Below are positions 1,495 through 50,553 of a stretch of 51,379 nucleotides of DNA, piece by piece (positions within the stretch are counted from its first letter, which is position 1; each line of letters opens with the position of its first letter). Under the pieces are notes generated by a model, which was not told where the DNA came from, ran no database searches, and saw only the letters and a program-made list of their open reading frames with translations. Source of the DNA: a virus (Duplodnaviria; Caudoviricetes); IMG/VR virus record IMGVR_UViG_3300048834_000363, positions 1 to 51,379 of that record, one strand, 5' to 3'. Position numbers and translations under genes: made by a program.

Positions 1495-2147
1495 GACGCT
1501 GCGGCCGGGGCGACCGGCGCGACCGGCGAGGTGGTTTGGAGTTCGACAGGACGCAGCACCACCGGCGCCATGAAAGCGACGTGCTCATTCGCCGGCAGCC
1601 GCATCAAGGACCAGATGCGGCGGCGCTGGGCATCTTCGCCGCCGACTGGCTTCAGCATGCCGCCGAAGAGCGCGATGCTCTGCTCAAGCGCACGCTCCAC
1701 CCATGCTTGAGCGACGGGAAATGAGACCTCGCGCGGCTTGCCGTCCGGGCCGATGGCCGCGCCCTCGACGTAATTCGCCGCGGCCTGCACCGCCCGTTCC
1801 GTCCATTCGGCGATCATCTCAGCACGCTTTGCGTCGGCATTGCGGTTGAGCACCTTGTTGACGGCTGCGGTGATTGCGGCCGTAGCGCCCAGCAGCGCCG
1901 TAGCGAGCAGAGACAGCACGCCCTCCAGAAGGGGCGAAAGGTCCACACGCCCGTCCGGCGCATACGTCGTGAGATCGGCCGATTGCTCGCCGTTGAACTC
2001 CGAGCCAGCCGCCGGCATCGGGGCGACCAGATCAGCGACAACGCCAGTGTTGGCCGCGATAGTTTCAGCGGCGGCCGGGGTGGCGAGCGCAAGCACGCCA
2101 AAGGTTGCCGCCGCCGCGAGCGCGGCGACGATCGATGACAGTTTCAT
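1491..2147 (-). CDS. Membrane protein, holin-like
   Basis: Signal-like N-terminus MKLSSIVAALAAA plus internal TM segment LLEGVLSLLATALLGA; first gene of the lysis-like cluster. Confidence 0.6.
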   Translation of the reverse strand: MKLSSIVAALAAAATFGVLALATPAAAETIAANTGVVADLVAPMPAAGSEFNGEQSADLTTYAPDGRVDLSPLLEGVLSLLATALLGATAAITAAVNKVLNRNADAKRAEMIAEWTERAVQAAANYVEGAAIGPDGKPREVSFPVAQAWVERALEQSIALFGGMLKPVGGEDAQRRRIWSLMRLPANEHVAFMAPVVLRPVELQTTSPVAPVAPAAAS

Positions 2148-2296
2148 ATTAGCTCCGTGGGTTCCAGGCGTGCGGGATTTGCGGCGGCGTCGGCCTGGAT
2201 GCGACACCGTCGACAAGGGGGGCTGCCTTGCCGGGACATTGGGTCAGGTCATTGACCAGCTTGGCTTAGGGGCTGGCGCTGCATTATGGTCAGCCG

Positions 2297-2941
2297 ATGG
2301 TCGACAAAGCTTATTCCGAGCGCCCAAATTTTCGTCCGTTCAGATGGGCGCTCGACGGCGGCGGGCGACGTCTGGTGATTGATCTCATCCGCACGCGCGG
2401 GCTGAAGGTTATGCTTGAAGTTGGGGTCTACGTAGGCGGATCAAGCCTGCAGTGGCTTGAGGCCTGCCCTGATCTGCATGTGATCGGCGTCGATCCGTGG
2501 CCCGCGGATATGGATGTCGGCGGGTATTTTGAACGCAATGCCGACTTCTACCGTGCGCATGTCGACCTGTGCGGCATGAGCGAGGCGGAGTTCATCGCGC
2601 AGATGAAGCGCCCAGACGCCGGATTCCTCGCGACGATTTCCAACCTTTGGGATTATCGAGGCCGCTTCACTCCGGTTCGTGGCTATGCGCCGGCGGCTTT
2701 GCATGAGCTTAAGGCGCGTGGTGCAAAGCCCGACATCGCGTTTCTCGACGCCATGAAAACCGGCGACGAAATGAATGTCATCCGCGAACTATGGCCAGAC
2801 TGCATCATCACAGGCGACGATTGGTGCTGGCGTGACCACGCCGGCAACGCACCCATTCGAGCTCCGGTGCTGGATTTTGCAGAGCGCCACGATCTGCGCC
2901 TCACCGTGGAGCGCGCGACCTGGATGCTGACGCCGCTTTAA
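2297..2941 (+). CDS. Class I SAM-dependent methyltransferase (Methyltransf_24-like), moron
   Basis: Motifs LEVGVYVGGS, IGVDPW, DIAFLDA, ITGDDW; opposite strand to the late operon. Confidence 0.85.
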   Translation: MVDKAYSERPNFRPFRWALDGGGRRLVIDLIRTRGLKVMLEVGVYVGGSSLQWLEACPDLHVIGVDPWPADMDVGGYFERNADFYRAHVDLCGMSEAEFIAQMKRPDAGFLATISNLWDYRGRFTPVRGYAPAALHELKARGAKPDIAFLDAMKTGDEMNVIRELWPDCIITGDDWCWRDHAGNAPIRAPVLDFAERHDLRLTVERATWMLTPL

Positions 2942-5238
2942 GCGGCGACGCGGTAGCGGCCGCGAATGCGGAGGATGGCGCCGCTCCCGCTGGCTTTGTC
3001 CGTAATCGCCAGCTCGCTCGGGCTCACGCCCGATCCAAGCGCCTGGATCGTAATGTAGCTCTGACCAGAGTTCGCGACCGGCACAAGTTGCGTGCGTGAC
3101 GCTGGCCAGTTGAACGCCGTGATGTCCGTCAGCACAAAGTCGCTCGGATTTGCCGACGCAACCGCCGCAAGCGGCAATCCGCCGATCCGCACAGCGCCGG
3201 TTGCCGTGGTATAAGTTGGGGTGAAGTTCAGATTGATCTCGATCTGAACCCATTTGCCAACGCGCTGATAATTGCCGACCTGCGTCGTGTACGACACTGA
3301 CAGGTCGCCAGGCGTGGAGCTCGTCACGGTCGGCGTGAACGTGCCAGCCTGATAGAGCGGTAGCAAGTTGGCGAAGTCGACGTAGTCGGTGGCGCCTGGA
3401 TTGCCCAAGACCTTTACGTTTGAGCCGATCGTTGCGCCGCCAGAAAGCGTGGTCGTGATGGCGGCGCCGTTACCCTTGAACGTGTTGCCGACGATTGCGA
3501 TGTCATCGATCGTAATCGCGCTGGACGCCGTCAGAAGAACGCCGTTGGTGGCGAAGTTTTGGATCAGGGTGCCGTAGATCGTGCCTTCGCCAGTTGAGCC
3601 CGATATAACAACGCCGTTTGTTGCTGTCGGCGTATCGCCGCCATCGAGCGTACTGCCTCCAATCGCCCAGCCTTCTTGCTCTTGTATATAGACGGCGTCG
3701 CCGCCAACCATTTTGACGGTGACATTGGAGAGAACCATGCGCTCTGAGGCATACCCGTAAACGCCTCGCGTATCGCAGCCGAGGATGGTGGTGCCGTCGA
3801 CACTCACGTCGTCGTTCGTGCCCGTGGCGCCCTGAATAGCGACTCCGGTTGTCCCGGTGACGCCATCAGCATCAATTGTACCCCCTGAGACAGAGGCCCC
3901 ATCCGAGCTGTTAGCTATCTCAATGCCGTTTATAGCGAAGCCCTTAATAGAACAATCGCTGGCGATGGCGCTGGGGCAATGATCCAGGCTTACCCCCATT
4001 GAGCCGCCAAACGTCGTGCACCCATCCGCCTTAAAACCAGGCGCATTTCTAACCTCGATGCAGAGATTGGAGCTGTCATTCGGCGAGGTTGGCATGCGCA
4101 CTTCGACATTGCGCACATAGCCGCCCTTGAGCGGGTAGGACGATGACCCGCGAATTTGGATGCCACCTTGCGTGAGGCTCGCAGGCATTGCCGAGCGATC
4201 GACGCGGCCGCCCTCGATGCGAGGGCCGTTCTTTGTGGCGGTGTTCGTGCCGCCGTCCAGGAAGATGCCGATATTGCCAACCGTGCCGCCAATGTCTTTA
4301 TCGATGATGTAAGTATCGTCCGTGTTGGCGCCGAGATAGATTCCGTAACCATCGACGTCGCGCACCTTCGGGCGGATCAGAACGCAACGATCACCATACA
4401 CCGTGATCCCGCCGCAGCTTGTCGTGTTGGCGGCGTTCCCATCGACATAAGCGTCAATAAGCGTCACATCGTCAGCGCTGGCGCCGATGCGGATCGCATC
4501 CTTGCTGGATGTGCCGCTGGCAAACTTCAACTTAGCGCCGCGGTCAAAAATCCAGACCTGGTTGGCCAGCGGTTCCAAATTGTCGGAGATGATATAGGTT
4601 CCGTGCGGGAAATAGATCGTGGCGCCGGACGCGCCTCCCGCTGTGATCGCCGCTGCGATCTCTGCGGTGTCGTCATTGCTGCCATCGCCCAACGCGCCGT
4701 AAGTCGGATTCTTGACGTTGATCCAGTTCGGCCCACCCAACCGCGCCATGGCTCTGGCTACAGTTGTCTCCTCCAACACAGGCGTCATGGCTTCGGACGC
4801 AGGCGAGCCCGAAAACACCAGCAGCCAGCGGCCAGCCCCTGTTGATGCGGCCCCTACAGAGGGGCGTAAAACCGTTGTGCCATTATGTGCGTCCTCGGAT
4901 GCTGGATCATAGCGATAGAACGCAATCTCCGTTTCGAGGAGAAGCGCAATAGCGCCGCTCGGAACGTGCGCTGCAGCATCGATCGCACGCAGGACGGTGG
5001 CAGTCAGCGCGTTGATGAACGTCGGCTGCTCAACCCAAATCGGCCCCGTCGCTTCACGGCACTGGTAGAGCTTCTTTTCGTCGGTTCTGAAGCAATATTG
5101 CCCGACGACTGGCGCTGGATCAGTCGGGAATGCCGTGCCGGAAAAGCAGCTCCGCAACGCCTCATCACGCGCAGCGATTTTCGGCCGGCTGTCCCGGATT
5201 TTTTGGGTTGCAGGAAAATCTTCGAACGTTTGAACCAT
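2938..5238 (-). CDS. Tailspike / receptor-binding protein with a right-handed beta-helix (pectate-lyase-like)
   Basis: NVKNPTYGALGDGSNDDTAEI...IYFPHGTYII entry motif, G/N/D/I-rich coil repeats, C-terminal GTFTPT...GNYQRVGKWV domain. Confidence 0.9.
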   Translation of the reverse strand: MVQTFEDFPATQKIRDSRPKIAARDEALRSCFSGTAFPTDPAPVVGQYCFRTDEKKLYQCREATGPIWVEQPTFINALTATVLRAIDAAAHVPSGAIALLLETEIAFYRYDPASEDAHNGTTVLRPSVGAASTGAGRWLLVFSGSPASEAMTPVLEETTVARAMARLGGPNWINVKNPTYGALGDGSNDDTAEIAAAITAGGASGATIYFPHGTYIISDNLEPLANQVWIFDRGAKLKFASGTSSKDAIRIGASADDVTLIDAYVDGNAANTTSCGGITVYGDRCVLIRPKVRDVDGYGIYLGANTDDTYIIDKDIGGTVGNIGIFLDGGTNTATKNGPRIEGGRVDRSAMPASLTQGGIQIRGSSSYPLKGGYVRNVEVRMPTSPNDSSNLCIEVRNAPGFKADGCTTFGGSMGVSLDHCPSAIASDCSIKGFAINGIEIANSSDGASVSGGTIDADGVTGTTGVAIQGATGTNDDVSVDGTTILGCDTRGVYGYASERMVLSNVTVKMVGGDAVYIQEQEGWAIGGSTLDGGDTPTATNGVVISGSTGEGTIYGTLIQNFATNGVLLTASSAITIDDIAIVGNTFKGNGAAITTTLSGGATIGSNVKVLGNPGATDYVDFANLLPLYQAGTFTPTVTSSTPGDLSVSYTTQVGNYQRVGKWVQIEINLNFTPTYTTATGAVRIGGLPLAAVASANPSDFVLTDITAFNWPASRTQLVPVANSGQSYITIQALGSGVSPSELAITDKASGSGAILRIRGRYRVAA

Positions 5239-33637: not shown

Positions 33638-33937
33638 TCATGATGCCTGCTCCAGCTTGTGCGCTTCGCGGAAGGCGGCGATTTGTGCGGCGTGGCGTTG
33701 TGCGGCGGCACTCGCTGTCTTGGCCGAGACCCCCAGCGCTTGCGCTGCGCGCTCCGCCGACCATTTGCGCTGCACGATGAGCTTCCAGAACAGCGCATCC
33801 CGCGCCGCCGCGATGTGCTCGCCGTGGCGCGCATCCTTGCGCTTCAGCGAGCGCGTACGGATGCCGTAATGCGCTGCGATCTCGCGCATCTCGACTGAGA
33901 GCGTGTGACCGGGGAGGGCGCCGAAGGGAACGATCAT
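33638..33937 (-). CDS. Small HTH protein resembling the DnaA C-terminal domain
   Basis: EIAAHYGI...IAAARDALFW...SAERAAQALG. Confidence 0.6.
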   Translation of the reverse strand: MIVPFGALPGHTLSVEMREIAAHYGIRTRSLKRKDARHGEHIAAARDALFWKLIVQRKWSAERAAQALGVSAKTASAAAQRHAAQIAAFREAHKLEQAS

Positions 33938-35262: not shown

Positions 35263-36033
35263 ATGACGTTCGTCATGAAGCTCGATCTTGCGCGCCTCCG
35301 CGAACGCCTTGCCGTCATGGAGGAAAAGGGCGTGAAGCCGCGCCAAATCTCCATGCGCGTTGCTGGCACACCCGATCTGGTGCGTCACATTCTGAAGGGT
35401 AGGCAGTCCAGTACCGACGGAGTGAAATTGCTGCGCCTGGCGAAGGCGTTGGAGGCGTCTGTTGAGTACCTGCACGGCGAATCGGATGAGGTGGGCAAGC
35501 CGCCCGACGTGGAGCTTTTGGCGGAGCGCACGACTGTGCGGCGCAAGTCAGCCCGGCCAAGAGATGTCAGGATACCGTTGGCCGCTGGTGTCGGCCTTCA
35601 TGTGCGCCATGTCGTACAGGCGGGCGCATGGATTGAGGTCGATGAAGCGGCGAGTGAGCGGATCGTTGCCCCGCCAGTATCAGCCAGCTCAGCATTTCCA
35701 GCGGAAATGCAGTGGCTTGAGCTGGTGCGCGGGGACAGCGCTGACCTCTATTATCCAGAGGGCGCCTTCGTTCATGTCGTCGGCGCGATCGATATTGGTT
35801 ATGCACCTCGCGACAAGGATTTTGTTGTCGTTGAACGGCGTCGAGAGCAGGGCGGGCTGATCGAGCGCTCGATAAAGCAAGTCGAAAGGCGCGGTCGAAA
35901 AATCGAACTGTGGCCGCGATCCCGAAATCCGAAATGGCAGCGCCCCCTTGATCTAGGCGATGGCGCTGACGATTCCACAGAGGTGGAGATCGTCGCGCTG
36001 GTGCTTGGGGCGCATTTGCCAGCGCCGCAATAG
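35263..36033 (+). CDS. cI: CI-like repressor (HTH plus S24 peptidase)
   Basis: LRLAKALEASVEYL HTH end, VQAG cleavage site, VRGDS (Ser) and SIKQV (Lys). Confidence 0.9.
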   Translation: MTFVMKLDLARLRERLAVMEEKGVKPRQISMRVAGTPDLVRHILKGRQSSTDGVKLLRLAKALEASVEYLHGESDEVGKPPDVELLAERTTVRRKSARPRDVRIPLAAGVGLHVRHVVQAGAWIEVDEAASERIVAPPVSASSAFPAEMQWLELVRGDSADLYYPEGAFVHVVGAIDIGYAPRDKDFVVVERRREQGGLIERSIKQVERRGRKIELWPRSRNPKWQRPLDLGDGADDSTEVEIVALVLGAHLPAPQ

Positions 36034-36670: not shown

Positions 36671-37606
36671 ATGAACACGCATACCGCAGACGAAAACATC
36701 GATCCGACGGCGCCGCTCGCGCCATCTGGTCGGCCCTGGGCTTACGGGCTGCGCACATGCGGGCCAAAAGGCGAGGCCTACAACGGTTTCACCTGGCCGA
36801 CCGAAAAGGGCGCAGTTGTTTCAGCGCCGGATTTTGATCCATCGCCAACCTGCGGCGGCGGCCTGCACCTCAACCCGTGGGGCATGGGCGACTGGTCGCT
36901 GCATTCGTATCACGCGTCCGCCCTGTGGATGGTGGTGCGGTACGACCCCGCGCTGGCGGTCGAACTCGACGGCGGTGAGCGTGGCGGCAAGATCAAGGCC
37001 CCTTGGGCCATCGTTGAGCAGGTCGAAACGCGGGAAAACCTTGCGCGCCTCCTCGGTCCGCTGGCGGTTCGGCGCATCGCTCGCATCAAGGAAATCACCT
37101 GTGACGCTGCGACGACCGGCTACGCCGCGCACGCTGCGACGACCGGCTACGCCGCGCACGCTGCGACGACCGGCTACGCCGCGCACGCTGCGACGACCGG
37201 CGACGCCGCGCACGCTGCGACGACCGGCGACGCCGCGCACGCTGCGACGACCGGCGGCCGCGCGCACGCTGCGACGACCGGCGGCCGCGCGCACGCTGCG
37301 ACGACCGGCGGCCGCGCGCACGCTGCGACGACCGGCGACGCCGCGCACGCTGCGACGACCGGCGGCCGCGCGCACGCTGCGACGACCGGCGACGACGCAA
37401 TCTCGGCAAGTCTCGGAATCGATGCACGGGCCAAGGCTGGCGCGGGCGGCGCAATCATGCTCGCCGAATACGGTTGGCGACCAGCGCTCGGCAAATACGA
37501 GCTCGTCGCCGTGTTCGCCTCCAAGGTGGGCGAGGGCGGCATTGAGCCCGACACCTGGTACAAGCTCGAAGGTGGCAAGCCTGTGGCGATCGAGGTGTCG
37601 CCATGA
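36671..37606 (+). CDS. Phage protein with 9-residue repeats (beta-solenoid-like)
   Basis: CGGGLHL N-domain, ten AATTGxxAH repeats, C-terminal KVGEGGIEPDTWYKL. Confidence 0.85.
   Translation: MNTHTADENIDPTAPLAPSGRPWAYGLRTCGPKGEAYNGFTWPTEKGAVVSAPDFDPSPTCGGGLHLNPWGMGDWSLHSYHASALWMVVRYDPALAVELDGGERGGKIKAPWAIVEQVETRENLARLLGPLAVRRIARIKEITCDAATTGYAAHAATTGYAAHAATTGYAAHAATTGDAAHAATTGDAAHAATTGGRAHAATTGGRAHAATTGGRAHAATTGDAAHAATTGGRAHAATTGDDAISASLGIDARAKAGAGGAIMLAEYGWRPALGKYELVAVFASKVGEGGIEPDTWYKLEGGKPVAIEVSP
37106..37399 (+). repeat. 27-bp tandem repeat, 10 full copies plus 1 partial
   Basis: GCTGCGACGACCGGC(TACGCC/GACGCC/GGCCGC)GCGCAC. Confidence 0.97.
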
Positions 37607-38240: not shown

Positions 38241-38587
38241 TGCGTAAGCCGACCGACCGCACCGAGGCTTGGTCGCGCTGGCGGCAGCGTGTCGAAGGGC
38301 GCGCGCTGGCGATCACCACAACGCCGGAGTGCGGCTTCTACCGCGCCAAGCGCAAAGGCCAGTACGTCGGCGTGCAGATCGATCTGCTGCAGGAGATCGA
38401 CGAAGAGACTGGCGAGCTCCGCAGCGAAGAGCAGCTGATCGCGATGATCGGCGACGACACGTTCATCGGCGATCGCGTCGACGCGATCTGGGTCGCGTGC
38501 GGCGGCAACCCCATCAGTGAGCAGGAATTCGAGCGGCTGCTGCGCATGCCGGCGGTGTCGGACCTGTCGCGCCAAGTCATCACCTAG
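38240..38587 (+). CDS. Hypothetical protein
   Basis: TGATG overlap; PECGFYR...W..C..NPISEQEFE pattern. Confidence 0.75.
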   Translation: MRKPTDRTEAWSRWRQRVEGRALAITTTPECGFYRAKRKGQYVGVQIDLLQEIDEETGELRSEEQLIAMIGDDTFIGDRVDAIWVACGGNPISEQEFERLLRMPAVSDLSRQVIT

Positions 38588-38597
38588 GAGGAATTAC

Positions 38598-39140
38598 ATG
38601 GGCCTGGACATCACCGCTTATCGTCAGCTGAAGCCCTGCGCCGCACCGGAGGGAGCCGCGACAGGCGATTACGACTACGAACGATTCTTCGCGCCGTTGA
38701 ACAACGACCACTTCCCAGGACGCGCCGCTGGGCTCGACAGTGAGTGGTACGAGTTCTCACGCCTCGATGGGGCCGTTCTTGGTTTCAGAGCCGGAAGCTA
38801 CAGCGGCTACAATAATTGGCGCGAATGGCTCGCAAAGCTCGCCGGGTACCCGGAAGACCCTGCGGAGGATTTGCGGCATCGACATTCTGGCGGGGCGTGG
38901 AAAGCGGACGGCGGGCCGTTCTGGGAGCTGATCTACTTCGCCGACAATGAGGGCACGATCGGCCCCATCGTCAGCGCGAAGCTCGCGAAGGATTTCGCCG
39001 AGTGGGATGAGCGCGCGAAGGCATTCAGCGAAACCATCGACGCAGATGCTGAGAGCCGCGCTTGGTTCTACCGGCAATATCAGACGTGGCGGCATGCGTT
39101 TGAAATGGCGGCCGACAACGGCGCGGTCGACTTCCATTGA
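38598..39140 (+). CDS. Hypothetical phage protein (MGLDITAY...)
   Basis: Strong SD AGGAGG; FRAGSYSGYNNWREWLA, FADNEGTIG. Confidence 0.85.
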   Translation: MGLDITAYRQLKPCAAPEGAATGDYDYERFFAPLNNDHFPGRAAGLDSEWYEFSRLDGAVLGFRAGSYSGYNNWREWLAKLAGYPEDPAEDLRHRHSGGAWKADGGPFWELIYFADNEGTIGPIVSAKLAKDFAEWDERAKAFSETIDADAESRAWFYRQYQTWRHAFEMAADNGAVDFH

Positions 39141-39148
39141 GGCCCGCC

Positions 39149-39913
39149 ATGACCGACACAGCAACCATCGGCCATAACAGCGGGGCGCAATTCGCCGACG
39201 TGCGCCGCGACATCGAGCAGCGCATCGCCGCGTTCCTGAAGGGCGGCGACGTATGGGCGAAGCGCGAGAAGCTCGACGACGCGGACGCCGCGAAGGCGAA
39301 CGACTTCATCACCGGGGTGAAGAAGCTCGCCAGCGACGCGGAGAAGGCGCGCGTCGCCGAGAAGGAGCCGCACTTAGAAGCGGGCCGCGCCGTCGACCGC
39401 GAGTGGAAGCAGATCGCCGAACGCATCGACGCCATCGCGGCGATCGTGAAGCCGAAGCTCGACGCGTACCTGCGCGCCAAGCAGGAGGAGCAGCGCAGGG
39501 CGGAGGCGGAGGCCCGCCGGCTCGCCGCTGAGGCCGAGGCCAACGCCCGCGCGGCGGCGGCTGATGCGGCGGCAGCTGAGACGCCGTCGGCGCAGATCGA
39601 GGCCGAGGCGCGGGCGCGGGCGCATCAGGAGGCGGCGGACGAAGCGGCGCGACAAGCCGAACGCAACGCAGCGCCCGTGCGCGTGGGTTCCGCAACCGGG
39701 CTCGCGCATCAGCGCGGTTTCAAGACGGTGCGCAAGCCCTCGATCAAATCGATGCCGCAGGCGCTCGCGCACTATCGCGACGAACCCGATCTCGAAGCGC
39801 TGATCTTGAAGCTGGCGGCGCGCGATCTGCGCGAAGCGCCGACGCGGCGGGGCGTGAAGCAAATCCCCGCCATCCCCGGAATTGAGTTCGTTGAGACACA
39901 GGAGCTTGCATAG
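39149..39913 (+). CDS. Coiled-coil early protein
   Basis: IGHN start, EKARVAEKEPHLEAGRAVD, Ala/Glu/Arg coil, IPGIEF end. Confidence 0.8.
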   Translation: MTDTATIGHNSGAQFADVRRDIEQRIAAFLKGGDVWAKREKLDDADAAKANDFITGVKKLASDAEKARVAEKEPHLEAGRAVDREWKQIAERIDAIAAIVKPKLDAYLRAKQEEQRRAEAEARRLAAEAEANARAAAADAAAAETPSAQIEAEARARAHQEAADEAARQAERNAAPVRVGSATGLAHQRGFKTVRKPSIKSMPQALAHYRDEPDLEALILKLAARDLREAPTRRGVKQIPAIPGIEFVETQELA

Positions 39914-39917
39914 CTAT

Positions 39918-40017
39918 CGCAGCGCGACGCGCCGCAACACATCACGCCGCAACACATCACGACACAGCGCTCCGCGCCGCTGCTCGTCACGGCACAACAC
40001 CCCGCAACGCAACGCTT
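39918..40017 (+). repeat. Pentamer array 1, 20 x (C-R-Y + NN); candidate guide ncRNA
   Basis: cgcAG cgcGA cgcGC cgcAA cacAT cacGC cgcAA cacAT cacGA cacAG cgcTC cgcGC cgcTG ctcGT cacGG cacAA cacCC cgcAA cgcAA cgcTT. Confidence 0.92.
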
Positions 40018-40035
40018 ACCCAATGGAGAATAGCA

Positions 40036-40602
40036 ATGCCCAAGATCGCAAGCTGCACCCTCAAAGCCATCTCGCCGTATTCGCAATCGCGCGCTCACGA
40101 GTCTCCGAAGAAGGAGAAGGAAACGCACGACGCCTATGAGCAGCGCACTTGGCGCGAGAAGGCGCACTTCGATGCAGATAGCGCAGTTTTCATTCCACCG
40201 ATGTCGCTGAAGATGGCGCTCGACGCGGGGGCGAAGTACCTACAGCTGCAAATTCCCGGCAAGGGCAAGTCGACGTACACGAAACACTTTGCATCCGGTT
40301 GCTTGGTGCTGGAGCCAGCATTCGTCGGCGTCCACAAAGACAATCTGCTCTGCGACCGCATCTATGCGAACGCTGACGGCGTGCGCGGTTCAGGCAAGCG
40401 TGTGTGGAAGTATTTTCCGCGCGTCGACAATTGGAAGGTCGACGTCGACTTCCACGTTTATGACGACGCCATCACCCGCGAGGTGTTCGAGAAGGTGCTC
40501 GGTGAAGCGGGGCGCTTCATCGGCATCGGCAGATTCCGTCCGCAGAACGGTGGGTTTTACGGTCGCTTCGCCGTCGAAAAGGTGAAGCGGCAAGAGGCTT
40601 AG
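40036..40602 (+). CDS. Stand-alone RAMP (Cas7/Csm3-like) protein
   Basis: TLKAISP first strand, FIPPMSLKMAL (compare IPGSSLKG), WKVDVDF, C-terminal Gly-rich loop GIGRFRPQNGGFYGRFAV; SD GGAG. Confidence 0.75.
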   Translation: MPKIASCTLKAISPYSQSRAHESPKKEKETHDAYEQRTWREKAHFDADSAVFIPPMSLKMALDAGAKYLQLQIPGKGKSTYTKHFASGCLVLEPAFVGVHKDNLLCDRIYANADGVRGSGKRVWKYFPRVDNWKVDVDFHVYDDAITREVFEKVLGEAGRFIGIGRFRPQNGGFYGRFAVEKVKRQEA

Positions 40603-40607
40603 ATTGC

Positions 40608-40697
40608 CGCGTCGCATCGCAGCGCGTCGCCTCGCGTCGCCCCGCGCCATTTCGTAGCGCCACGCCCCACGCCGCACCACACCACAGCACAACGTCT
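40608..40697 (+). repeat. Pentamer array 2, 18 x (C-R-Y + NN); candidate guide ncRNA
   Basis: cgcGT cgcAT cgcAG cgcGT cgcCT cgcGT cgcCC cgcGC catTT cgtAG cgcCA cgcCC cacGC cgcAC cacAC cacAG cacAA cgtCT. Confidence 0.92.
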
Positions 40698-40715
40698 ACT
40701 CGCCAGGAATCGTAC

Positions 40716-41219
40716 ATGTTCACCTCAAGCGCAGAAATCGCCGCGACCGCCGAGACATTATCCGATGCGCTTTGCGCGCTCTCGCCTGGCGAAATCGCCA
40801 CGTACACGCAACTGAGCAAGCTCGCCGGTGAGTCGCTATCTGGAGCCTCTTACGTTCTTCGTCGCGCGCTCAAACTTGCCGAGGAGCGCAGTGGCGCGCT
40901 GTTCGAGAACGTCACCGGGCGCGGATACAAGCGCCTGGAGACGACCGCCATTCCTGCCGTCGGGAAGAAAGCTAACGGGCGCATTCGTGGCGTCGCTCGG
41001 CGAACGCGCAAGCGGTTCGAGAGCGTGCGCGCAAACGACATGAACCAGAGCGATCTCGCCACGGTGGCCGCCTATCGCTCGCACTTCGGAATGATCGAAG
41101 GTATGGCGCGCGAGAACAACATCAAATCCCAGGCTCGTCAGATCGCTGCCGCAAGCGTGTCGGTTGCCGACGCGGCAGCGGGGCTGATGGGCTCAGAGAA
41201 AAAGGAGCAGACGAAGTGA
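40716..41219 (+). CDS. Winged-helix plus helical protein, probable partner of the RAMP protein
   Basis: PGEIATYTQLSKLAG (HTH-like) and FENVTGRGYKR (wing-like). Confidence 0.75.
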   Translation: MFTSSAEIAATAETLSDALCALSPGEIATYTQLSKLAGESLSGASYVLRRALKLAEERSGALFENVTGRGYKRLETTAIPAVGKKANGRIRGVARRTRKRFESVRANDMNQSDLATVAAYRSHFGMIEGMARENNIKSQARQIAAASVSVADAAAGLMGSEKKEQTK

Positions 41220-41482
41220 CGACCGAAGCAATTGAACTCCTCCGCACACGCGTGTTGCAGGCGCGCGAGATCGCGAAGGAGGCCATCACCGAATATCACG
41301 CGATGCATGCGCGGATTCAGGAGAAATACAAAATCTGGAGCGAGGCCACCTCGCAGGAAGAGGGCTTCATTTACGCCATACGTGAACTCGGTGGTGAGAT
41401 CGATGATCCGAAGGCTCACGGGTTCTTTCTGAAACCGACGCTCGACGCGCTCTCAGCTGCGCTCACTGAGGAGAAGAACTAA
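41216..41482 (+). CDS. Hypothetical protein
   Basis: GTGA overlap with SD AAGGAG. Confidence 0.7.
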   Translation: MTTEAIELLRTRVLQAREIAKEAITEYHAMHARIQEKYKIWSEATSQEEGFIYAIRELGGEIDDPKAHGFFLKPTLDALSAALTEEKN

Positions 41483-42670
41483 ATGAACGCGCCCGCACCC
41501 CGCGTGATCGACCTCGACCAAGACGGTCAGGAGATCAGCGTCAACCTCGAACAGATGGGCGTCTCCGCCGCCGAGGTGAACCAGCAGATCGCCACCGCCA
41601 AGAAGTACCCGCGCTCGCTTGAGCAATTCCGCAAAGAGCTGATCGGGCAGGTGACGCTGTCGGAGTCCATCGCGCGCAGCTGCATCTATGCGCTGCCACG
41701 CGCCGGCAAGAAGATCGAAGGCCCCTCGATCCGCTTCGCCGAGATGGCCATGGGCGCCTGGGGCAATTGCCGCGCCACCGCCCGCATCGTGGCCGAGACG
41801 GAGAACTTCGTCATCGCGCAAGGCATCTTCATCGACCTGCAGCGCAACGTCGCCGTAGGGATCGAGGTCGGGCGTCGCATCATCGACTCCGAGGGCCGGC
41901 GCTTCAATATCGATATGATCGGAGTCACTGGCGCCGCGGCCTCGTCGATCGCGCTGCGCAACGCCATCCTGCGCGGCATCCCGCGTGCGCTCACCGATGA
42001 AGCCTACGTCAACGCGAAGCGCACCGTCGCCGGCACGCTGGCCACGCTCGCGGATCGGCGCAACCGCGCGCTCGAAGCGTTCAAGCCGTACGGCGTGACG
42101 GAGCAGCAAATCCTCGCCGCGCTGGGCAAGCAAGGCCTGGTCGAGATCGGGCTCGAAGACCTGGTCACGCTCGGGGGCTTCCTCACCGCGATCCAGCAAG
42201 AGGAGCGCGATCCCGAAGAGATTTTCCCGCCGGCCACGAACGCGGCGACGCGCCGTCAATCGGCGCCGCCTCCGGCTGCGGAGAAACCGCAACAACAAAC
42301 CAGTTCCCCCAGCGGCGGGGGCTCCGCAGGCGCCGACGCGCCAAAGGCTGATGGTGGTGACGGGGGCGAAGGCCAAGCCCCGCCTGCGGAGAAGCCGAAG
42401 CCGGAGCCGAAGCCGAGGAAGGCGGCGCGTGAGCCCAGCGAACTCGAACAGTCGATCGCCAACACCTTGGCCGACTGCAAGACGCTGGCCGATTGCGACG
42501 GCGTCCGCTCGCTCTTCCAGCGCGAGCTGATCGATGCGTCCCCGGAAGTGCGCGCCGCCGTCGAGCTGCTGATCGATGACGCCAAGGCCGCGATCCAGAA
42601 GCGCCTCGAAGCCGACGATGATTTCCCCGGCGATCGCCCACCGAACTCAGTGTCGGGGAGCCTGGTCTGA
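41483..42670 (+). CDS. Putative recombination (single-strand annealing-like) protein
   Basis: QIATAKKYPRS, YALPRAGKKIEGPSIRFAE, SIALRNAIL; disordered linker and small C-domain; function inferred from pattern and position. Confidence 0.7.
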   Translation: MNAPAPRVIDLDQDGQEISVNLEQMGVSAAEVNQQIATAKKYPRSLEQFRKELIGQVTLSESIARSCIYALPRAGKKIEGPSIRFAEMAMGAWGNCRATARIVAETENFVIAQGIFIDLQRNVAVGIEVGRRIIDSEGRRFNIDMIGVTGAAASSIALRNAILRGIPRALTDEAYVNAKRTVAGTLATLADRRNRALEAFKPYGVTEQQILAALGKQGLVEIGLEDLVTLGGFLTAIQQEERDPEEIFPPATNAATRRQSAPPPAAEKPQQQTSSPSGGGSAGADAPKADGGDGGEGQAPPAEKPKPEPKPRKAAREPSELEQSIANTLADCKTLADCDGVRSLFQRELIDASPEVRAAVELLIDDAKAAIQKRLEADDDFPGDRPPNSVSGSLV

Positions 42671-45533: not shown

Positions 45534-45603
45534 GCGCTCTGTTCCTCGCGCTGGCTCTGCTCTTTGCGGCGTTTGTTGCGCCGACGGGGAGGCGCTGACG
45601 GCA

Positions 45604-45861
45604 ATGAAGAACAAGATAGGCGACCTGAACAATCACCTTTTCGCGCAGCTCGAGCGGCTGGGCGACGAGGATCTGACGGGCGATGCCCTAGAGGCCGAGT
45701 GCAAGCGCGCCGAAGCCATCGCGGAGATCAGCGAGCAATTGATCCGCAGCGCGAACGTGTCGCTGAATGCGGCCAAGCTCGTCGGCGAATACGGCGCCAG
45801 CGTGCGACAAGGGCTGCCGCTGCTGGAGTCGCCGCGCCATATCGCGAGCGACGACGAATGA
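45604..45861 (+). CDS. Conserved small phage protein (MKNKIGDLNNHLFAQLERL)
   Basis: Pattern commonly found just upstream of this type of HNH gene; SD GGAGG. Confidence 0.8.
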   Translation: MKNKIGDLNNHLFAQLERLGDEDLTGDALEAECKRAEAIAEISEQLIRSANVSLNAAKLVGEYGASVRQGLPLLESPRHIASDDE

Positions 45862-46700
45862 GAGGCAAGGCCATCTCTTACAGCGCCGCCGAAATGGCGT
45901 GGCTCAAAGCGAACCGCTCGCTGGTGATGAGTGATTACGCCGCCGCGTTCAATGCGGAGTTCGGGCGTGACCTCACGCCGGAGAACCTGAAAGCCTTGCG
46001 CGTGCGCATGGGTTGGCGCGTCGGGCGCGCCGCCAGTCGTGCGAAGATGAAGGGCGCCGCCAAAGCGTATTCCGCAGAGGAAATGGCCTGGCTTGAGACC
46101 AACCGCCTGCTGCCAATCGCCGACTACACGGCGCAGTTCAACGCGGCGTTCGGTCGTGATGTCTCGGCTGAGAAGCTTCATGCGTTGCGCAAGCGGCGCC
46201 GCTGGAAAACTGGCCGCACCGGCCAATTCGAGAAAGGCCAAACGTCGCCGAACAAAGGCAAGAAGATGCCGCCCGGTGTCGGCGGCAACCACCCCAATGC
46301 GCAGCGCACGCAGTTCAAGAAAGGCGGCTTGCCGCACAATACGAAGCACGCCGGCCACGAGCGCATGACGAAGGACGGCTACGTCATGATGAGCGTTGAC
46401 GAGACGAACCCGCACACCGGCTTCGAGCGCCGCTACGTGCTGAAACACAAGTGGCTTTGGGAGCAGAAGAACGGCCCGCTCCCGGATGACCATGCCTTGA
46501 AATGCATAGACGGCAACCGAGCGAATGCGGACCCGTCGAACTGGGAAGCGATTCCGCGCGCGATGCTGCCGCTGCTGACGAAGGGCCCGCGTGGCCGTGG
46601 CCTCGATTACGACGCCGCGCCCGATGAGCTGAAGCCCGCGATCATGGCGGTGGCGAAGCTGAAACACACGGCGAAAGCAAAGCGGAAGGCGACGCGATGA
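45858..46700 (+). CDS. HNH endonuclease with a duplicated N-terminal helical repeat
   Basis: FEKGQTSPNKG, TQFKKGGLPHN, KDGY, KHKWLWEQKNGP, DGNRANADPSNW. Confidence 0.88.
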   Translation: MRGKAISYSAAEMAWLKANRSLVMSDYAAAFNAEFGRDLTPENLKALRVRMGWRVGRAASRAKMKGAAKAYSAEEMAWLETNRLLPIADYTAQFNAAFGRDVSAEKLHALRKRRRWKTGRTGQFEKGQTSPNKGKKMPPGVGGNHPNAQRTQFKKGGLPHNTKHAGHERMTKDGYVMMSVDETNPHTGFERRYVLKHKWLWEQKNGPLPDDHALKCIDGNRANADPSNWEAIPRAMLPLLTKGPRGRGLDYDAAPDELKPAIMAVAKLKHTAKAKRKATR

Positions 46701-47310: not shown

Positions 47311-47708
47311 TGAACGCACCCGGCCAGACGCCAAACGGAAAGCGCGTGAGCGCGCTCCTCATCGAGCTGGGCTTCGCCGACATCAGCGCGCTGCAAATGA
47401 ACGCAGCGTGCGGCATGATCGCGGAAGCGCTGGAAGAGCTCAAGCGCGCACGCGAGGCGCTGCAGATGGCGCGCCAATTCGCCGAGGCCGAAGCGGAGCT
47501 GCGCGGCGTCGTCGATGAACGCTACGACCCGCCGGCGGCGGTGATGATCGAGAAGATCGACGGCGTGCGTGCTCCAGGCGTCGCAACCAGCGGCTACGTC
47601 GCGATCGCCGGCGAGGAGCGATTGCCTGGCCTGACAAAGGGGCAAACCGACGAGCGCTGGCAAGGCGTGTTCGATCGTATGGACTCGGAAGGGAAGGCGG
47701 ATGGCTGA
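47307..47708 (+). CDS. Hypothetical protein
   Basis: Overlapping starts and stops. Confidence 0.6.
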   Translation: MMNAPGQTPNGKRVSALLIELGFADISALQMNAACGMIAEALEELKRAREALQMARQFAEAEAELRGVVDERYDPPAAVMIEKIDGVRAPGVATSGYVAIAGEERLPGLTKGQTDERWQGVFDRMDSEGKADG

Positions 47709-48213
47709 GCAAACCTCGATCGAATGGGCCGCCAACGCCGACGGCACGTCCGGCGCGACCACGCTGGCCTACCTCGCGGGTGTCATCGACAGCGACGGCT
47801 ACATTTCAATTCAGCGCGTGGTGCGCAAAGGGAAGCGCTATCACTGCGCGATTGTAGGGATCGCTGGAACGCGGCGCGAGCCGCACGATTTGGCCGCATC
47901 GATCTGGGGCGGGAAGATCATTCCTTACACGCCAAAGAATCCGCGCCACCGCACGCAATTTCAATGGCAACGTTCAGGTCGATCGGCTGTGCCGGTGATC
48001 AACGCGGTGCTGCCTTATCTTCTGGTCAAGGTGCAGCAGGCGCTTCTGGCCCTGGAGTGCGAAGCCAACCTCGAAGAAGAACGCGCTGGCGGGGATGATC
48101 CTTTTCCATGGTGCGGGCCGGATTATGATCCGCGCGATCATCGCGACGAGATGCGAGAAGAGATCATCACGCACCTAAACCAGGGGCGGCGCATGCCGTT
48201 CACCAGAGCATGA
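47701..48213 (+). CDS. Single-motif LAGLIDADG endonuclease-like protein
   Basis: LAYLAGVIDSDGYISI...LPYLLVKVQQA. Confidence 0.85.
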   Translation: MAEQTSIEWAANADGTSGATTLAYLAGVIDSDGYISIQRVVRKGKRYHCAIVGIAGTRREPHDLAASIWGGKIIPYTPKNPRHRTQFQWQRSGRSAVPVINAVLPYLLVKVQQALLALECEANLEEERAGGDDPFPWCGPDYDPRDHRDEMREEIITHLNQGRRMPFTRA

Positions 48214-49129: not shown

Positions 49130-49361
49130 GCCCCGCCGCCCCCGCTGCCGCTACGCCTCTGACGCCGAGGTCAAGCGCGCCTTCAAGCTGGCGCGCGAGG
49201 AGGGGCTGAACCCGACCGGCTTCACTTTGCAGCCCGACGGCGGGGTGACAGTGCTTGACTCCAGCGCAGCTGCGGCGCCTGGGTTGGCCGAGGGGGAAAC
49301 TTCAGCCGATGCCGCGCTCGCCGCCTGGAAAAAGACGCATGGAACTCCCGGGCGCCAATAA
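49122..49361 (+). CDS. Probable excisionase / recombination directionality factor
   Basis: Small gene overlapping the integrase start; call rests on position. Confidence 0.55.
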   Translation: MPEPRRPRCRYASDAEVKRAFKLAREEGLNPTGFTLQPDGGVTVLDSSAAAAPGLAEGETSADAALAAWKKTHGTPGRQ

Positions 49362-50553
49362 GGTCTGGAAGCGGCTGGCAGGCGGCCGCTGGGCGCGCCT
49401 CTGGTACGCCTGGCGCGGGCGCGGTGCGCCGCTGCTGGCGCGCTTCGAGGGCGACACGCGCGCCGATGTCGAAGCCCAGGAGGCCAGCGACGAGGGCGCC
49501 AAGAAGCTCGCGCTCGGCTTCGCGAATTCGACCAACCCGAAGATCGACACGCGCACCGTCGGCGGAATCGTCTCGGCATGGAAGGCGAGCCCCGCCTTCA
49601 AGAACCGCTCGGACTCGACGAAGAAGAGCGAGATGAAGCCGGTCGATGATGTGATCGACAGTCCGATCGGCCAGATGCCTGCGTCGCTGCTGACGGCCAA
49701 GCGCGCGCAAGCGAAGATCACGGAATGGCTTGAACACATCGCGGCGACGAATGGACCAGCCGCCGCCGACAAGCGGCAAGACGTGATTTCGAAGGCGCTG
49801 AACTGGGGGAAGAGCAAGGGCCATTGCGCGGCGAACCCGGCCGAGGGGATCAAGAACTTCGCCAACGCCGATCGGTCCGACATCATTTGGCTCAGCGAAG
49901 ACGTGCGGGCGTTCGAGGCGTCGGCGCGTGCGGCGTGGGCGGTGAAGCGCAAGGCGGGAACACCGCAGCCGAACACGCCGCCCCTGATCGTGCTGGCGCT
50001 CATGCTGGCCTGCTACACGGGCCTGCGGCGCGAAGACTTGGTCAACCTGACTTGGCGCGACGTCGGTCCCAACGCGATCACGCTGCGCGCGCGTAAGTCC
50101 GCACGCCGCGCCCGCACCGCCGGCAAGAAGGCGCCGCCGCCGGTGATTATCCCGCGCACGCCGGATCTCAACGCCGTGCTTGAGCTGCTCGATCCTGGTG
50201 AGGAGAAGCGCGCTGAACGGCCCTGGGTGCTGGTGAACACGCGCGGCAAGAAGTGGACGCCTGACGGGCTGTCATCGACGTTCTTCAAGGTGCGCGATGC
50301 CGCGAACGGTGGCGCAGGAATCAACTTCTATCCGACCGAGCCCGACGATGCGGCGCCGATCGCGAAGACCTTACACGATGCGCGGGGGACGTTCGTCACG
50401 CACATGCGCTGCCTCGGCTTCGCCAAGGAAGAGGTCGCGGAGATGGTGGGCTGGACGACGGAAGACGTCGATCGCGTCGCCAAGCGCTATGCCGACGCGG
50501 AGCGGATCGCGCTGGCGTGGCTGGAACGGCTGAAGCGTCGCAGCGGCGGCTGA
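49339..50553 (+). CDS. int: Tyrosine recombinase / integrase
   Basis: YTGLRREDL (Arg), LHDARGT (HxxR), VGW, KRYA (Tyr); adjacent to att. Confidence 0.95.
   Translation: MELPGANKVWKRLAGGRWARLWYAWRGRGAPLLARFEGDTRADVEAQEASDEGAKKLALGFANSTNPKIDTRTVGGIVSAWKASPAFKNRSDSTKKSEMKPVDDVIDSPIGQMPASLLTAKRAQAKITEWLEHIAATNGPAAADKRQDVISKALNWGKSKGHCAANPAEGIKNFANADRSDIIWLSEDVRAFEASARAAWAVKRKAGTPQPNTPPLIVLALMLACYTGLRREDLVNLTWRDVGPNAITLRARKSARRARTAGKKAPPPVIIPRTPDLNAVLELLDPGEEKRAERPWVLVNTRGKKWTPDGLSSTFFKVRDAANGGAGINFYPTEPDDAAPIAKTLHDARGTFVTHMRCLGFAKEEVAEMVGWTTEDVDRVAKRYADAERIALAWLERLKRRSGG

What the first reader, a model, noticed from the sequence alone, without database searches (positions are those of the whole stretch)
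40036..40602. Minimal Cas7-like protein in a phage early operon
Seen: LKAISP, FIPPMSLKMAL and a C-terminal GIGRFRPQNGGFYGRF in only 188 aa. Knowledge: Csm3/Cmr4-type RAMPs have an N-terminal strand ending in (S/T)P, an IPGSSLKG motif and a terminal GxG...GxG loop. Inference: a compact, possibly ancestral-type RAMP that standard pipelines would call hypothetical. An alternative role is an anti-CRISPR decoy subunit.
Basis: partly seen in the sequence, partly recalled or inferred. Interest (0 to 1): 0.75.

Follow-up and report, generated by a model that had tools for sequence, protein, structure and literature searches.

The report
Phage Vipr guide-RNA protein, variant repeats
This small phage gene encodes a Vipr protein, the recently described minimal relative of CRISPR Cas7 that coats a five-base-repeat guide RNA to silence rival mobile DNA, and here its flanking guide arrays use a C-purine-C repeat core where the textbook case has G-G-pyrimidine.

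Summary

- **Family:** it is a Vipr protein of a VIPR system (preprints of 2026). A family profile finds only SUSP1 Vipr (PDB 36pp) among solved chains, E 9e-13. The predicted fold (pLDDT 97) matches Cas7/Csm3 at Z 11.9.
- **Guide arrays:** both intergenic gaps beside the gene are filled with sense-strand five-base repeats, 20 and 18 units. These are the expected guide (vrRNA) arrays.
- **Accessory gene:** a winged-helix gene follows at 40716-41219, and the same family follows vipr in 60 related loci.
- **Context:** the contig is a temperate tailed phage with no CRISPR array.
- **Variant core:** the fixed core is CRC/NN, not the canonical GGY/NN. A CAC/NN variant is mentioned in one preprint.
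- **Protein changes track the core:** among 60 distinct relatives, the first fixed base (G or C) and the middle base track specific thumb and G-loop residues. Sister pairs switch repeatedly.
- **Open points:** no natural target was found, and expression and the skip rule are untested here.

This is a new member of a known kind. The anti-CRISPR decoy reading has no support.

The parts
39918..40017 (+). vrRNA array 1: 20 five-base units in one register, 19 CRC-NN and one CTC-NN (unit 14). It begins 5 nt after the stop of the upstream gene. The last units (CGCAA CGCAA CGCTT) resemble the constant 3' end seen in relatives. The remaining 18 nt (40018-40035) carry the vipr ribosome-binding site.
   Evidence: A six-unit CRCNN pattern gives 14 matches in the window, all in the two arrays and all on the + strand, against 0.01 expected from 100 shuffles. 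Not better folded than shuffles (z +1.03).
40036..40602 (+). vipr: 188-aa minimal RAMP (single RRM core, thumb hairpin about 105-130, glycine-rich loop 163-176).
40608..40697 (+). vrRNA array 2: 18 five-base units in one register, 15 CRC-NN plus CAT-TT, CGT-AG and a final CGT-CT (all 18 fit C-R-Y). It begins 6 nt after the vipr stop. The 18 nt that follow (40698-40715) carry the start region of the next gene.
   Evidence: Not better folded than shuffles (z +1.12).
40716..41219 (+). vap-like accessory gene, 167 aa: N-terminal winged helix (residues about 1-75) and a helical C-terminal half.
   Evidence: Same family found just downstream of vipr in 60 related loci (61 loci counting the window). 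Model pLDDT 93.4. Residues 1-75 match winged-helix domains (5wy5_B Z 8.6, rmsd 2.8 over 75 aa; PurR 1o57_A Z 7.0), with only weak Foldseek rows (best E 0.13). Distant match to the gene after the Vipr homologue of Pseudomonas phage LESphi2 (hhalign probability 89%, E 2.1e-6).

Best explanation
The ORF is the Vipr protein of a phage-borne VIPR (Viral Interference Programmable Repeat) system. The locus reads vrRNA array, vipr, vrRNA array, vap-like winged-helix gene.

The mechanism below is taken from the SUSP1 system and is inferred here, not shown.
- The two intergenic arrays are transcribed with the operon and cut out as guide RNAs.
- One Vipr protomer binds each five-base unit and forms a helical filament.
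- The three fixed bases (here C-R-C) are flipped out and held by the thumb and glycine-rich loop of neighbouring protomers.
- The two variable bases of each unit are displayed and pair with double-stranded DNA that carries the same dinucleotides. In SUSP1 these are separated by one skipped base.
- Binding blocks transcription of a competing phage, satellite or prophage. The winged-helix accessory protein helps.

What is particular here is the fixed core: CRC instead of GGY. The protein carries the residue set that goes with a C-first core in its relatives (A111, N112, Q170, G172). It also carries R166, which goes with a middle base that may be G.
For: **Shown here**
- Homology to the solved, tested SUSP1 Vipr: it is the only PDB sequence hit, E 9.9e-5, and E 9e-13 over residues 13-183 with the family profile.
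- RAMP fold: the top structural matches are all Cas7-type subunits.
- Sense-strand period-5 arrays fill both flanking gaps and lie far above chance.
- In 89 related loci oriented on vipr, runs of six or more units on the vipr strand numbered 153 for CRCNN and 80 for GGYNN. The reverse-complement forms gave 3 and 1. So the arrays are strand-locked to vipr.
- Variable dinucleotides differ completely between the window and its 81%- and 77%-identical relatives L010 and L011, while the fixed core is kept.
- The accessory gene is conserved in position and has a winged helix.
- Phage context, no CRISPR array, and the record is a virus record.
- Core-to-protein match. I dropped 22 duplicate proteins and 8 with an unclear array, which left 60 distinct classed relatives. 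All 33 G-first proteins have V111-P112, F127 and R170. Of the 27 C-first proteins, 10 have Y127 and 16 have G172 with a changed 111/112. One (L007) differs only by K172.
- Four sister or near-sister pairs switch G to C together with V111L and F127Y.
- F127, R166, F167 and R168 align with SUSP1 R138, D177, W178 and R179. The cryo-EM preprint names those residues as the contacts of the fixed bases (section 5 read).

**From the literature**
- vrRNA, filament, one-base skip rule, silencing and the vap1 effect.
Against: - No natural target was found under the one-base skip rule, so neither the rule nor the function is verified for this system.
  - Local search of the window plus 89 loci gave at most 25 of 40 guide positions, the same as the 0- and 2-base controls.
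  - Eight exact-seed scans of viral contigs and two of metagenome contigs gave nothing or seed-only chance hits.
  - The full records of five relatives gave none at up to 3 mismatches.
- The canonical GGY core is absent from the window.
- There is no structured 3' tail of the SUSP1 pseudoknot kind. Both intergenic RNAs fold no better than shuffles and no Rfam family matches.
- No sigma-70-like promoter was found in 39000-41600, and neither of the 2 terminator-like sites lies on the + strand. How the guides are made is therefore open.
- The covariation counts are not phylogenetically independent. The tree behind the sister pairs is the quick one with SH-aLRT support only.
Confidence: 0.88

Rival explanations
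1. A Vipr-like RAMP that binds its CRC/NN arrays but does something other than silence foreign DNA. It might target RNA, or regulate its own operon by coating the intergenic RNA, so the arrays would be cis-regulatory sites and not guides.
For: No target was found by any search. The arrays fill the gaps right up to the ribosome-binding sites of vipr and the vap-like gene, so protein coating could affect translation. The fixed core and several contact residues differ from the tested SUSP1 system.
Against: The variable dinucleotides turn over completely between 77-81% identical relatives while the core is kept. That is the pattern of guides, not of a fixed regulatory site. Relatives carry up to 12 tracts per locus, including tracts beyond the accessory gene. 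The winged-helix partner points to DNA.
Confidence: 0.07
2. An anti-CRISPR decoy: a Cas7 mimic that poisons host Class 1 effector complexes.
For: Cas7-like fold in a phage. The Foldseek list includes Csm complexes with an Acr bound, which only shows that such conflicts exist.
Against: The gene comes with its own strand-locked guide arrays and a conserved accessory gene. Its only sequence relative with a solved structure is a guide-RNA-binding Vipr. No feature specific to a decoy was found.
Confidence: 0.02
3. An orphan or decaying CRISPR Cas7 picked up by a phage, with the period-5 repeats being unrelated simple sequence.
For: Structural matches to Csm3, Cmr4 and type VII Cas7 at Z 10-12.
Against: No CRISPR array and no cas model hit. 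The family is large and intact: 2876 clusters at E <= 0.001, and 1396 representatives at 50% identity. The arrays recur beside the gene in most related loci: 79 of 90 could be classed.
Confidence: 0.02

Closest known systems
SUSP1 VIPR system (Escherichia phage SUSP1; called type II in preprint 10.64898/2026.04.26.720920; Vipr structure PDB 36pp)
   Same: Homologous minimal RAMP (profile E 9e-13). Guide arrays of five-base units with three fixed and two variable bases on the vipr strand, on both sides of the gene. Followed by a small predicted DNA-binding accessory gene. Phage-borne, with no CRISPR array or cas genes.
   Different: The fixed core is CRC here against GGY. Base-contact residues differ: R138 to F127, D177 to R166, W178 to F167, with R179 kept as R168, and the G-loop has a four-residue insertion. 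The tracts have 18-20 units against the 9-16 stated for SUSP1-type vrRNAs. No pseudoknot tail is detectable. The host phage is temperate (integrase and CI-like repressor), while SUSP1 is described as obligately lytic. About 25-30% identity only over the C-terminal half.
Locus in Pseudomonas phage vB_Pae_LESphi2 (OQ594955.1, P21_9 and P21_8, both annotated 'hypothetical protein')
   Same: Only hit in the phage collection (27% identity over 84% of the query; hhalign probability 99.1%, E 9.4e-19). The gene lies on the repressor's strand downstream of CI. The next gene is distantly related to the window's accessory gene (probability 89%).
   Different: Its roughly 470-nt upstream gap carries canonical GGY-NN tracts, each followed by a longer tail (sequence read). 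Its G-loop reads CDYRP like SUSP1's GDWRP, where the window has GRFRP.
Non-canonical VIPR-like arrays reported in preprint 10.64898/2026.10.21.760802 (passages read)
   Same: That preprint reports 21 period-5 clusters next to Vipr-like folds with other fixed trinucleotides, 'e.g. GAC/NN or CAC/NN'. The window's CRC/NN and the GAC, CTC, GTC and GGT cores I saw in relatives fit that description.
   Different: The passages I read link no motif to protein residues and say the motifs repeat about 10 times. Here there are 18-20 units, and CGC and CAC units are mixed within one tract. Its supplementary figure S10 could not be seen.
CRISPR Class 1 backbone subunits (Csm3/Cmr4 of type III, Cas7 of type VII, Csf2 of type IV)
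   Same: Same fold over the whole 188 residues (Z 9.6-11.9), including the thumb hairpin and glycine-rich loop. It probably works in the same way as a repeating RNA-coating subunit.
   Different: 9-16% identity only. One protomer per 5 nt where Cas7 has one per 6 (recalled). No partner Cas5, Cas10, Cas8 or Cas6, and no CRISPR array in the window.

Membership tests
VIPR system / Vipr protein | Sequence homology to an experimentally characterised Vipr | tested here: met
   SUSP1 Vipr 36pp_D is the only PDB sequence hit: E 9.9e-5, and E 9e-13 over 13-183 against 30-191 with the profile of alignment A1.
VIPR system / Vipr protein | RAMP fold with RRM core, glycine-rich loop and thumb, and no second RRM domain | tested here: met
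   Model pLDDT 97.1. Csm3 Z 11.9, Cmr-beta subunit Z 11.8, type VII Cas7 Z 10.9. Foldseek gives 110 rows at E <= 0.001, and those listed are CRISPR Class 1 effector subunits. At 188 aa, a single beta-alpha-beta core, hairpin 105-130 and loop 163-176 account for the whole chain.
VIPR system / Vipr protein | vipr flanked by tandem five-base repeats (three fixed, two variable bases, at least 4 units) on the same strand | tested here: met
   20 units at 39918-40017 and 18 units at 40608-40697. 14 six-unit matches against 0.01 expected. The strand lock is seen across 89 loci.
VIPR system / Vipr protein | Fixed trinucleotide is GGY (canonical YNNGG unit) | tested here: not met
   No GGYNN run of 6 or more units anywhere in the window. 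The core is CRC. The discovery preprint allows 'a related consensus' and lists NNNGG, YNNNG and NNNNG. A later preprint lists CAC/NN. This excludes the canonical subtype, not the family.
VIPR system / Vipr protein | Adjacent vipr-accessory (vap) gene with a predicted DNA-interacting fold | tested here: met
   The family of ORF 40716-41219 follows vipr in 60 related loci, out of 82 with at least 700 nt of downstream sequence. It has an N-terminal winged helix. The Foldseek support is weak (best E 0.13).
VIPR system / Vipr protein | Minimal locus outside CRISPR-Cas, mostly in viruses or proviruses | tested here: met
   No CRISPR-like repeat. No cas model hit. Terminase, portal, capsid, tape measure, tail fibre, CI-like repressor and integrase lie on the same 51-kb virus record.
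VIPR system / Vipr protein | vrRNAs are expressed and co-purify with Vipr as a filament | not testable with these tools
   No expression or binding data could be obtained here. This needs small-RNA sequencing and pull-down.
VIPR system / Vipr protein | Guides match natural targets under the one-base skip rule | tested here: inconclusive
   No match above chance in any collection searched. The collection scans found exact seeds only, so targets with mismatches would be missed.
VIPR system / Vipr protein | Constant 3' tail after the repeat tract (pseudoknot in the SUSP1 clade) | tested here: inconclusive
   Tracts here and in L010 and L011 end in a recurring CRC-AA CRC-AA/GA CG(C/T) followed by a short pyrimidine-rich stretch. 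No stable fold is predicted (z +1.0 and +1.1) and there is no Rfam match.
VIPR type (I-VII) | Placement in the published Vipr phylogeny together with vap class and array architecture | not testable with these tools
   The type tree, logos and data tables are in supplements that are closed. Only legends were read. The vipr plus winged-helix vap layout and the distant vap match to LESphi2 resemble type II, but I do not assign a type.
CRISPR-Cas Cas7 (Csm3/Cmr4 type) | Encoded in a cas operon next to a CRISPR array | tested here: not met
   The neighbours are phage genes.

The most novel reading that the evidence does not exclude
The fixed trinucleotide of VIPR guides is itself an evolving specificity. 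In this clade the first fixed base flips between G and C, and the middle base narrows from purine to A or T. These changes recur between close relatives, each time with matching substitutions at the thumb (positions 111/112 and 127, the latter the SUSP1 R138 site) and the G-loop (166, the SUSP1 D177 site, and 170/172). This would create mutually orthogonal Vipr-guide pairs. A plausible selective force is inter-phage conflict: a changed scaffold would stop rivals' stand-alone guide RNAs from borrowing or misdirecting the protein, a tactic shown for SUSP1 satellites in 10.64898/2026.10.15.759431 (abstract read; passages). The window would be one such orthogonal CRC-type system.
Probability: 0.35. 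Interest if true: 0.7.

Novelty: new member of a known kind. Interest (0 to 1): 0.5.

Why it matters
VIPR was described only in 2026 and is proposed as the viral ancestor of CRISPR backbone proteins, so every well-resolved locus adds to a thin record. This one shows a clean, complete, minimal operon in a temperate phage of a GC-rich host, with a non-canonical CRC core.

Compared with its relatives, it also gives a testable residue-to-base table for how Vipr reads the fixed bases. If the table holds, it would explain how these systems diversify. It would also offer orthogonal protein-guide pairs for multiplexed programmable repression.

It is also a useful check on the scan: a reader with no tools recognised a RAMP that Pfam, NCBIfam and PADLOC all miss.

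Tried and rejected
- **Natural targets.** None of these searches gave a target.
  - Local scoring of both guides against the window and 89 loci with 0-3 skipped bases found only the arrays themselves at skip 3. Otherwise the best was 25 of 40 and 22 of 36 positions.
  - 152 distinct guides from all loci were scored against the same data. The best-match fractions were the same for skip 0, 1 and 2, and none reached 0.9.
  - Exact gapped seeds in viral contigs gave 0 hits or 7, 2 and 3 hits. Those hits did not extend beyond the seed: 18/26 to 26/40, 20-21/36, and 21/36.
  - Two metagenome scans gave 0.
  - The full records of five relatives gave 0 at up to 3 mismatches.
- **Homo-oligomer.** A prediction of three Vipr copies without RNA returned no verdict. 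I take nothing from it.
- **Sequencing runs.** None was listed for 39700-41300, so there is no statement on expression.
- **Rfam.** No family matched in 38500-42000 at E <= 1, so there is no hammerhead or other known RNA between tracts.
- **Promoters and terminators.** No sigma-70-like promoter was found, and only two minus-strand terminator-like sites, fewer than in shuffles.
- **Arrays on the other strand.** I considered reading the arrays on the minus strand as GYG-NN, which would fit the published 'YNNNG' class. I rejected this because in 89 loci the CRC and GGY forms both lie on the vipr strand and their complements almost never do.
- **D177-to-R166 as the cause of the G-to-C switch.** Rejected, because R166 is shared by the G-first and C-first members of this clade. 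It tracks the middle base instead.
- **Structure comparison with Vipr 36pp.** Not possible. The fold library ends on 2026-04-08 and lists no Vipr.

Full report
**The observation**

The window holds an ORF at 40036-40602 on the + strand (188 aa, ATG, GGAG 9 nt upstream). They mark the conserved positions of a large family.
- A word-indexed search found 2876 clusters at E <= 0.001, all unnamed or 'hypothetical' apart from one evident misnomer.
- An exhaustive search of 50%-identity representatives found 1396 at E <= 0.001 and 305 at E <= 1e-30.
- I picked 100 members from those two lists and aligned them. G163, G173 and G176 are invariant, and P54, G165, R168 and R177 are at least 90% conserved.
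- Curated libraries miss the protein: Pfam none, NCBIfam none, PADLOC none, PHROGs only phrog_4652 'unknown function'.

**What the protein is**

Among all PDB chain sequences the single hit is 'SUSP1 Vipr protein', 36pp_D. The E-value is 9.9e-5 with the single sequence and 9e-13 with the family profile, covering residues 13-183 against 30-191.

The AlphaFold2 model is very confident (pLDDT 97.1, pTM 0.90). Its structural neighbours are Cas7-type RAMPs.
- Csm3 6ae2_B: Z 11.9, rmsd 2.6 over 146 residues.
- A Cmr-beta subunit: Z 11.8.
- Type VII Cas7: Z 10.9.
- Csf2 of type IV: Z about 10.
- Foldseek's best hit is type VII Cas7 8yhe_F at E 6.3e-8.

That fold library ends on 2026-04-08 and shows no Vipr entry, so I could not superpose the model on 36pp.

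**What is in print**

Four papers in the held library deal with VIPR (listings).
- *Discovery preprint, 10.64898/2026.04.26.720920.* I read the Results and Methods sections 18 and 20, plus passages.
  - It describes Vipr as an early-branching minimal RAMP, found mostly in viruses and proviruses.
  - Vipr is flanked by intergenic guide RNAs (vrRNAs) of 9-16 YNNGG units followed by a constant tail, and is accompanied by one accessory gene (vap).
  - The NN bases recognise double-stranded DNA with one skipped base per unit and repress transcription.
- *Cryo-EM preprint, 10.64898/2026.04.26.720927.* I read sections 5 and 6.
  - It shows one protomer per unit.
  - G1 is read by H17 and D177. G2 is held by R138 and W178. 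Y3 sits in a pocket that includes E71, M72, C173 and R179.
- *Competition preprint, 10.64898/2026.10.15.759431.* I read the abstract, outline and passages. It shows satellites that encode stand-alone vrRNAs which redirect the phage's Vipr.
- *Language-model preprint, 10.64898/2026.10.21.760802.* I read passages. It reports 21 period-5 clusters with other fixed trinucleotides, 'e.g. GAC/NN or CAC/NN', next to Vipr-like folds.
- Supplements of all four were closed. They may hold type assignments and motif logos that bear on what follows.

**The locus**

Both gaps beside the gene are filled with five-base repeats on the + strand.
- 39918-40017: 20 units, 19 CRC-NN and one CTC-NN.
- 40608-40697: 18 units, 15 CRC-NN plus CAT-TT, CGT-AG and CGT-CT.

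A six-unit CRCNN pattern matches 14 times in the window. All matches lie in these two arrays, against 0.01 expected from shuffles. There is no GGYNN run in the window.

The arrays start 5-6 nt after the preceding stop codon and run up to the ribosome-binding region of the next gene. Neither intergenic RNA folds better than its shuffles (z +1.03 and +1.12). No Rfam family matches. No sigma-70-like promoter or + strand terminator was found. I therefore infer that the guides are cut from the operon transcript. This is not shown.

The next gene, 40716-41219 (167 aa), belongs to a family that follows vipr in 60 related loci (single-linkage BLASTP clustering). Direct tblastn with the window protein found only 4.
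- The model, built from 34 of the 62 clustered ORFs, has pLDDT 93.4.
- It shows a winged helix at residues 1-75 and a helical C-terminal half.
- The winged helix matches 5wy5_B at Z 8.6 over 75 residues and PurR at Z 7.0.
- Foldseek gives only weak winged-helix rows, best E 0.13.

This fits the published description of DNA-binding vap genes.

The contig is a temperate tailed phage.
- Minus strand: large terminase, portal, major head, tape measure, tail fibre and replication genes.
- Plus strand: a CI-like repressor at 35263-36033 and an integrase at 49255-50553. vipr lies between them.

The record is a 51-kb virus record. TRF finds no CRISPR-like array. So 'phage' is confirmed. 'Early operon' is plausible by analogy with the repressor-to-integrase arm of lambdoid phages (recalled), but it is untested.

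**Related loci**

I fetched 9 loci from genomes and 80 from viral contigs, all oriented on vipr.
- Runs of six or more units on the vipr strand numbered 153 for CRCNN and 80 for GGYNN. The reverse-complement forms gave 3 and 1. So the guides are sense to vipr, and the CRC reading is the right one, not GYG on the other strand.
- De novo motif calling found further cores: GAC (for example L008, L024, L039, L087), CTC (L006, L007, L053, L078, L082), GTC (L086) and GGT (L088).
- Of 90 loci including the window, 44 are G-first, 35 are C-first and 11 could not be classed.
- The nearest relatives, L010 (81% identity) and L011 (77%), keep the CRC core but share none of the window's NN series.
- Their tracts end in the same CRC-AA CRC-AA/GA CG(C/T) motif and a short pyrimidine-rich stretch. 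I take this as the constant 3' end of this clade.

**Protein changes that go with the core**

I removed identical proteins (90 to 68) and then 8 with an unclear array. That left 60.
- All 33 G-first proteins carry V111-P112, F127 and R170.
- Of the 27 C-first proteins, 10 carry Y127.
- Another 16 carry G172 with a changed 111/112. The window is one of these, with A111, N112, F127, Q170 and G172.
- One, L007 with a CTC core, differs only by K172.
- A quick maximum-likelihood tree (SH-aLRT support only; the careful search did not finish) places G-first and C-first loci as sisters or near-sisters four times: L015/L055, L024/L019, L065/L005 and L062/L045.
- In each pair the C-first member has L111 and Y127, and the G-first member has V111 and F127.
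- R166 goes with a middle base that includes G (39 of 40). Another residue at 166 goes with A-only or T-only cores (14 of 15). Six A/T-only loci keep R.
- By the HMM alignments, F127, R166, F167 and R168 correspond to SUSP1 R138, D177, W178 and R179. Those are the published contacts of the fixed bases.
- These counts are not phylogenetically independent, so they are a lead and not a proof.
- I found no statement linking alternative cores to residues in the four papers (term searches). Their supplements were not visible.

**A named comparator**

The only hit in the phage collection is Pseudomonas phage vB_Pae_LESphi2 (27% identity; hhalign probability 99.1%).
- Its gene P21_9 is annotated 'hypothetical' and lies downstream of CI on the same strand.
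- It is preceded by a gap of about 470 nt with canonical GGY-NN tracts (sequence read).
- It is followed by a gene distantly related to the window's accessory gene (probability 89%, E 2.1e-6).

**Targets**

I found none. The searches are listed under Tried and rejected. The collection scans accept exact patterns only, so a target with a few mismatches would escape. The one-base skip rule is therefore carried over from SUSP1 and is not verified for a CRC-type system.

**Verdict**

The gene is a Vipr, and the locus is a complete minimal VIPR system of a temperate phage. It fails the canonical GGY feature. It fits the family on homology, fold, array architecture, strand, accessory gene and genomic setting. 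It also fits the non-canonical class already mentioned in print. I rate it a new member of a known kind, of moderate interest. The interest comes mainly from the residue-to-core pattern, which is directly testable.

Noticed in passing
window 37104-37398, inside ORF 36671-37606 (+): A 27-nt tandem repeat, 10.9 copies at 95% match. It encodes nonapeptide repeats of the form AATTG-x-x-AH in a 311-aa protein whose only PHROG hits have unknown function.
   Followed up: no
L008, L024, L025, L039, L057, L065, L068, L085, L087 (GAC); L006, L007, L053, L078, L082 (CTC); L086 (GTC); L088 (GGT): Vipr relatives 44-55% identical to the window carry arrays with yet other fixed trinucleotides, all on the vipr strand. 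The cores differ between close relatives on the tree.
   Followed up: partly
L099 (OQ594955.1, Pseudomonas phage vB_Pae_LESphi2), locus 1914-3456: An unannotated VIPR-like locus in a named prophage of a cystic-fibrosis Pseudomonas aeruginosa strain. GGY-NN tracts lie in the gap after CI and a 'sigma factor' gene, followed by a Vipr homologue (P21_9) and a vap-like gene (P21_8), both called hypothetical.
   Followed up: partly
L059, L060, L061, L079 (about 3200-4480 or the equivalent); L016 4560-6075: Some relatives carry many tracts: up to 12 CAC-NN tracts of 6-10 units, three before and nine after the accessory gene, with tracts often spaced about 15 nt apart. These are much larger guide repertoires than the window's two.
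   Followed up: no
window 41952-41996 (+) and 33673-33707 (-): Weak CRCNN-like runs (6 of 9 and 6 of 7 units) inside coding regions. Probably chance in GC-rich coding sequence, not extra guides.
   Followed up: no
window 39137-39913 and 41483-42670 (+): The genes on either side of the VIPR module hit phrog_10477 ('exonuclease', E 8.8e-22) and phrog_3657 (unknown, E 6.6e-48). Each recurs in only 1 of 89 related loci. The VIPR module therefore moves between phage backgrounds as a unit of arrays, vipr and vap.
   Followed up: partly
window 45564-46700 and 47701-48213 (+): Two HNH endonuclease-family genes (phrog_1891 and phrog_5046) lie between the regulatory region and the integrase.
   Followed up: no
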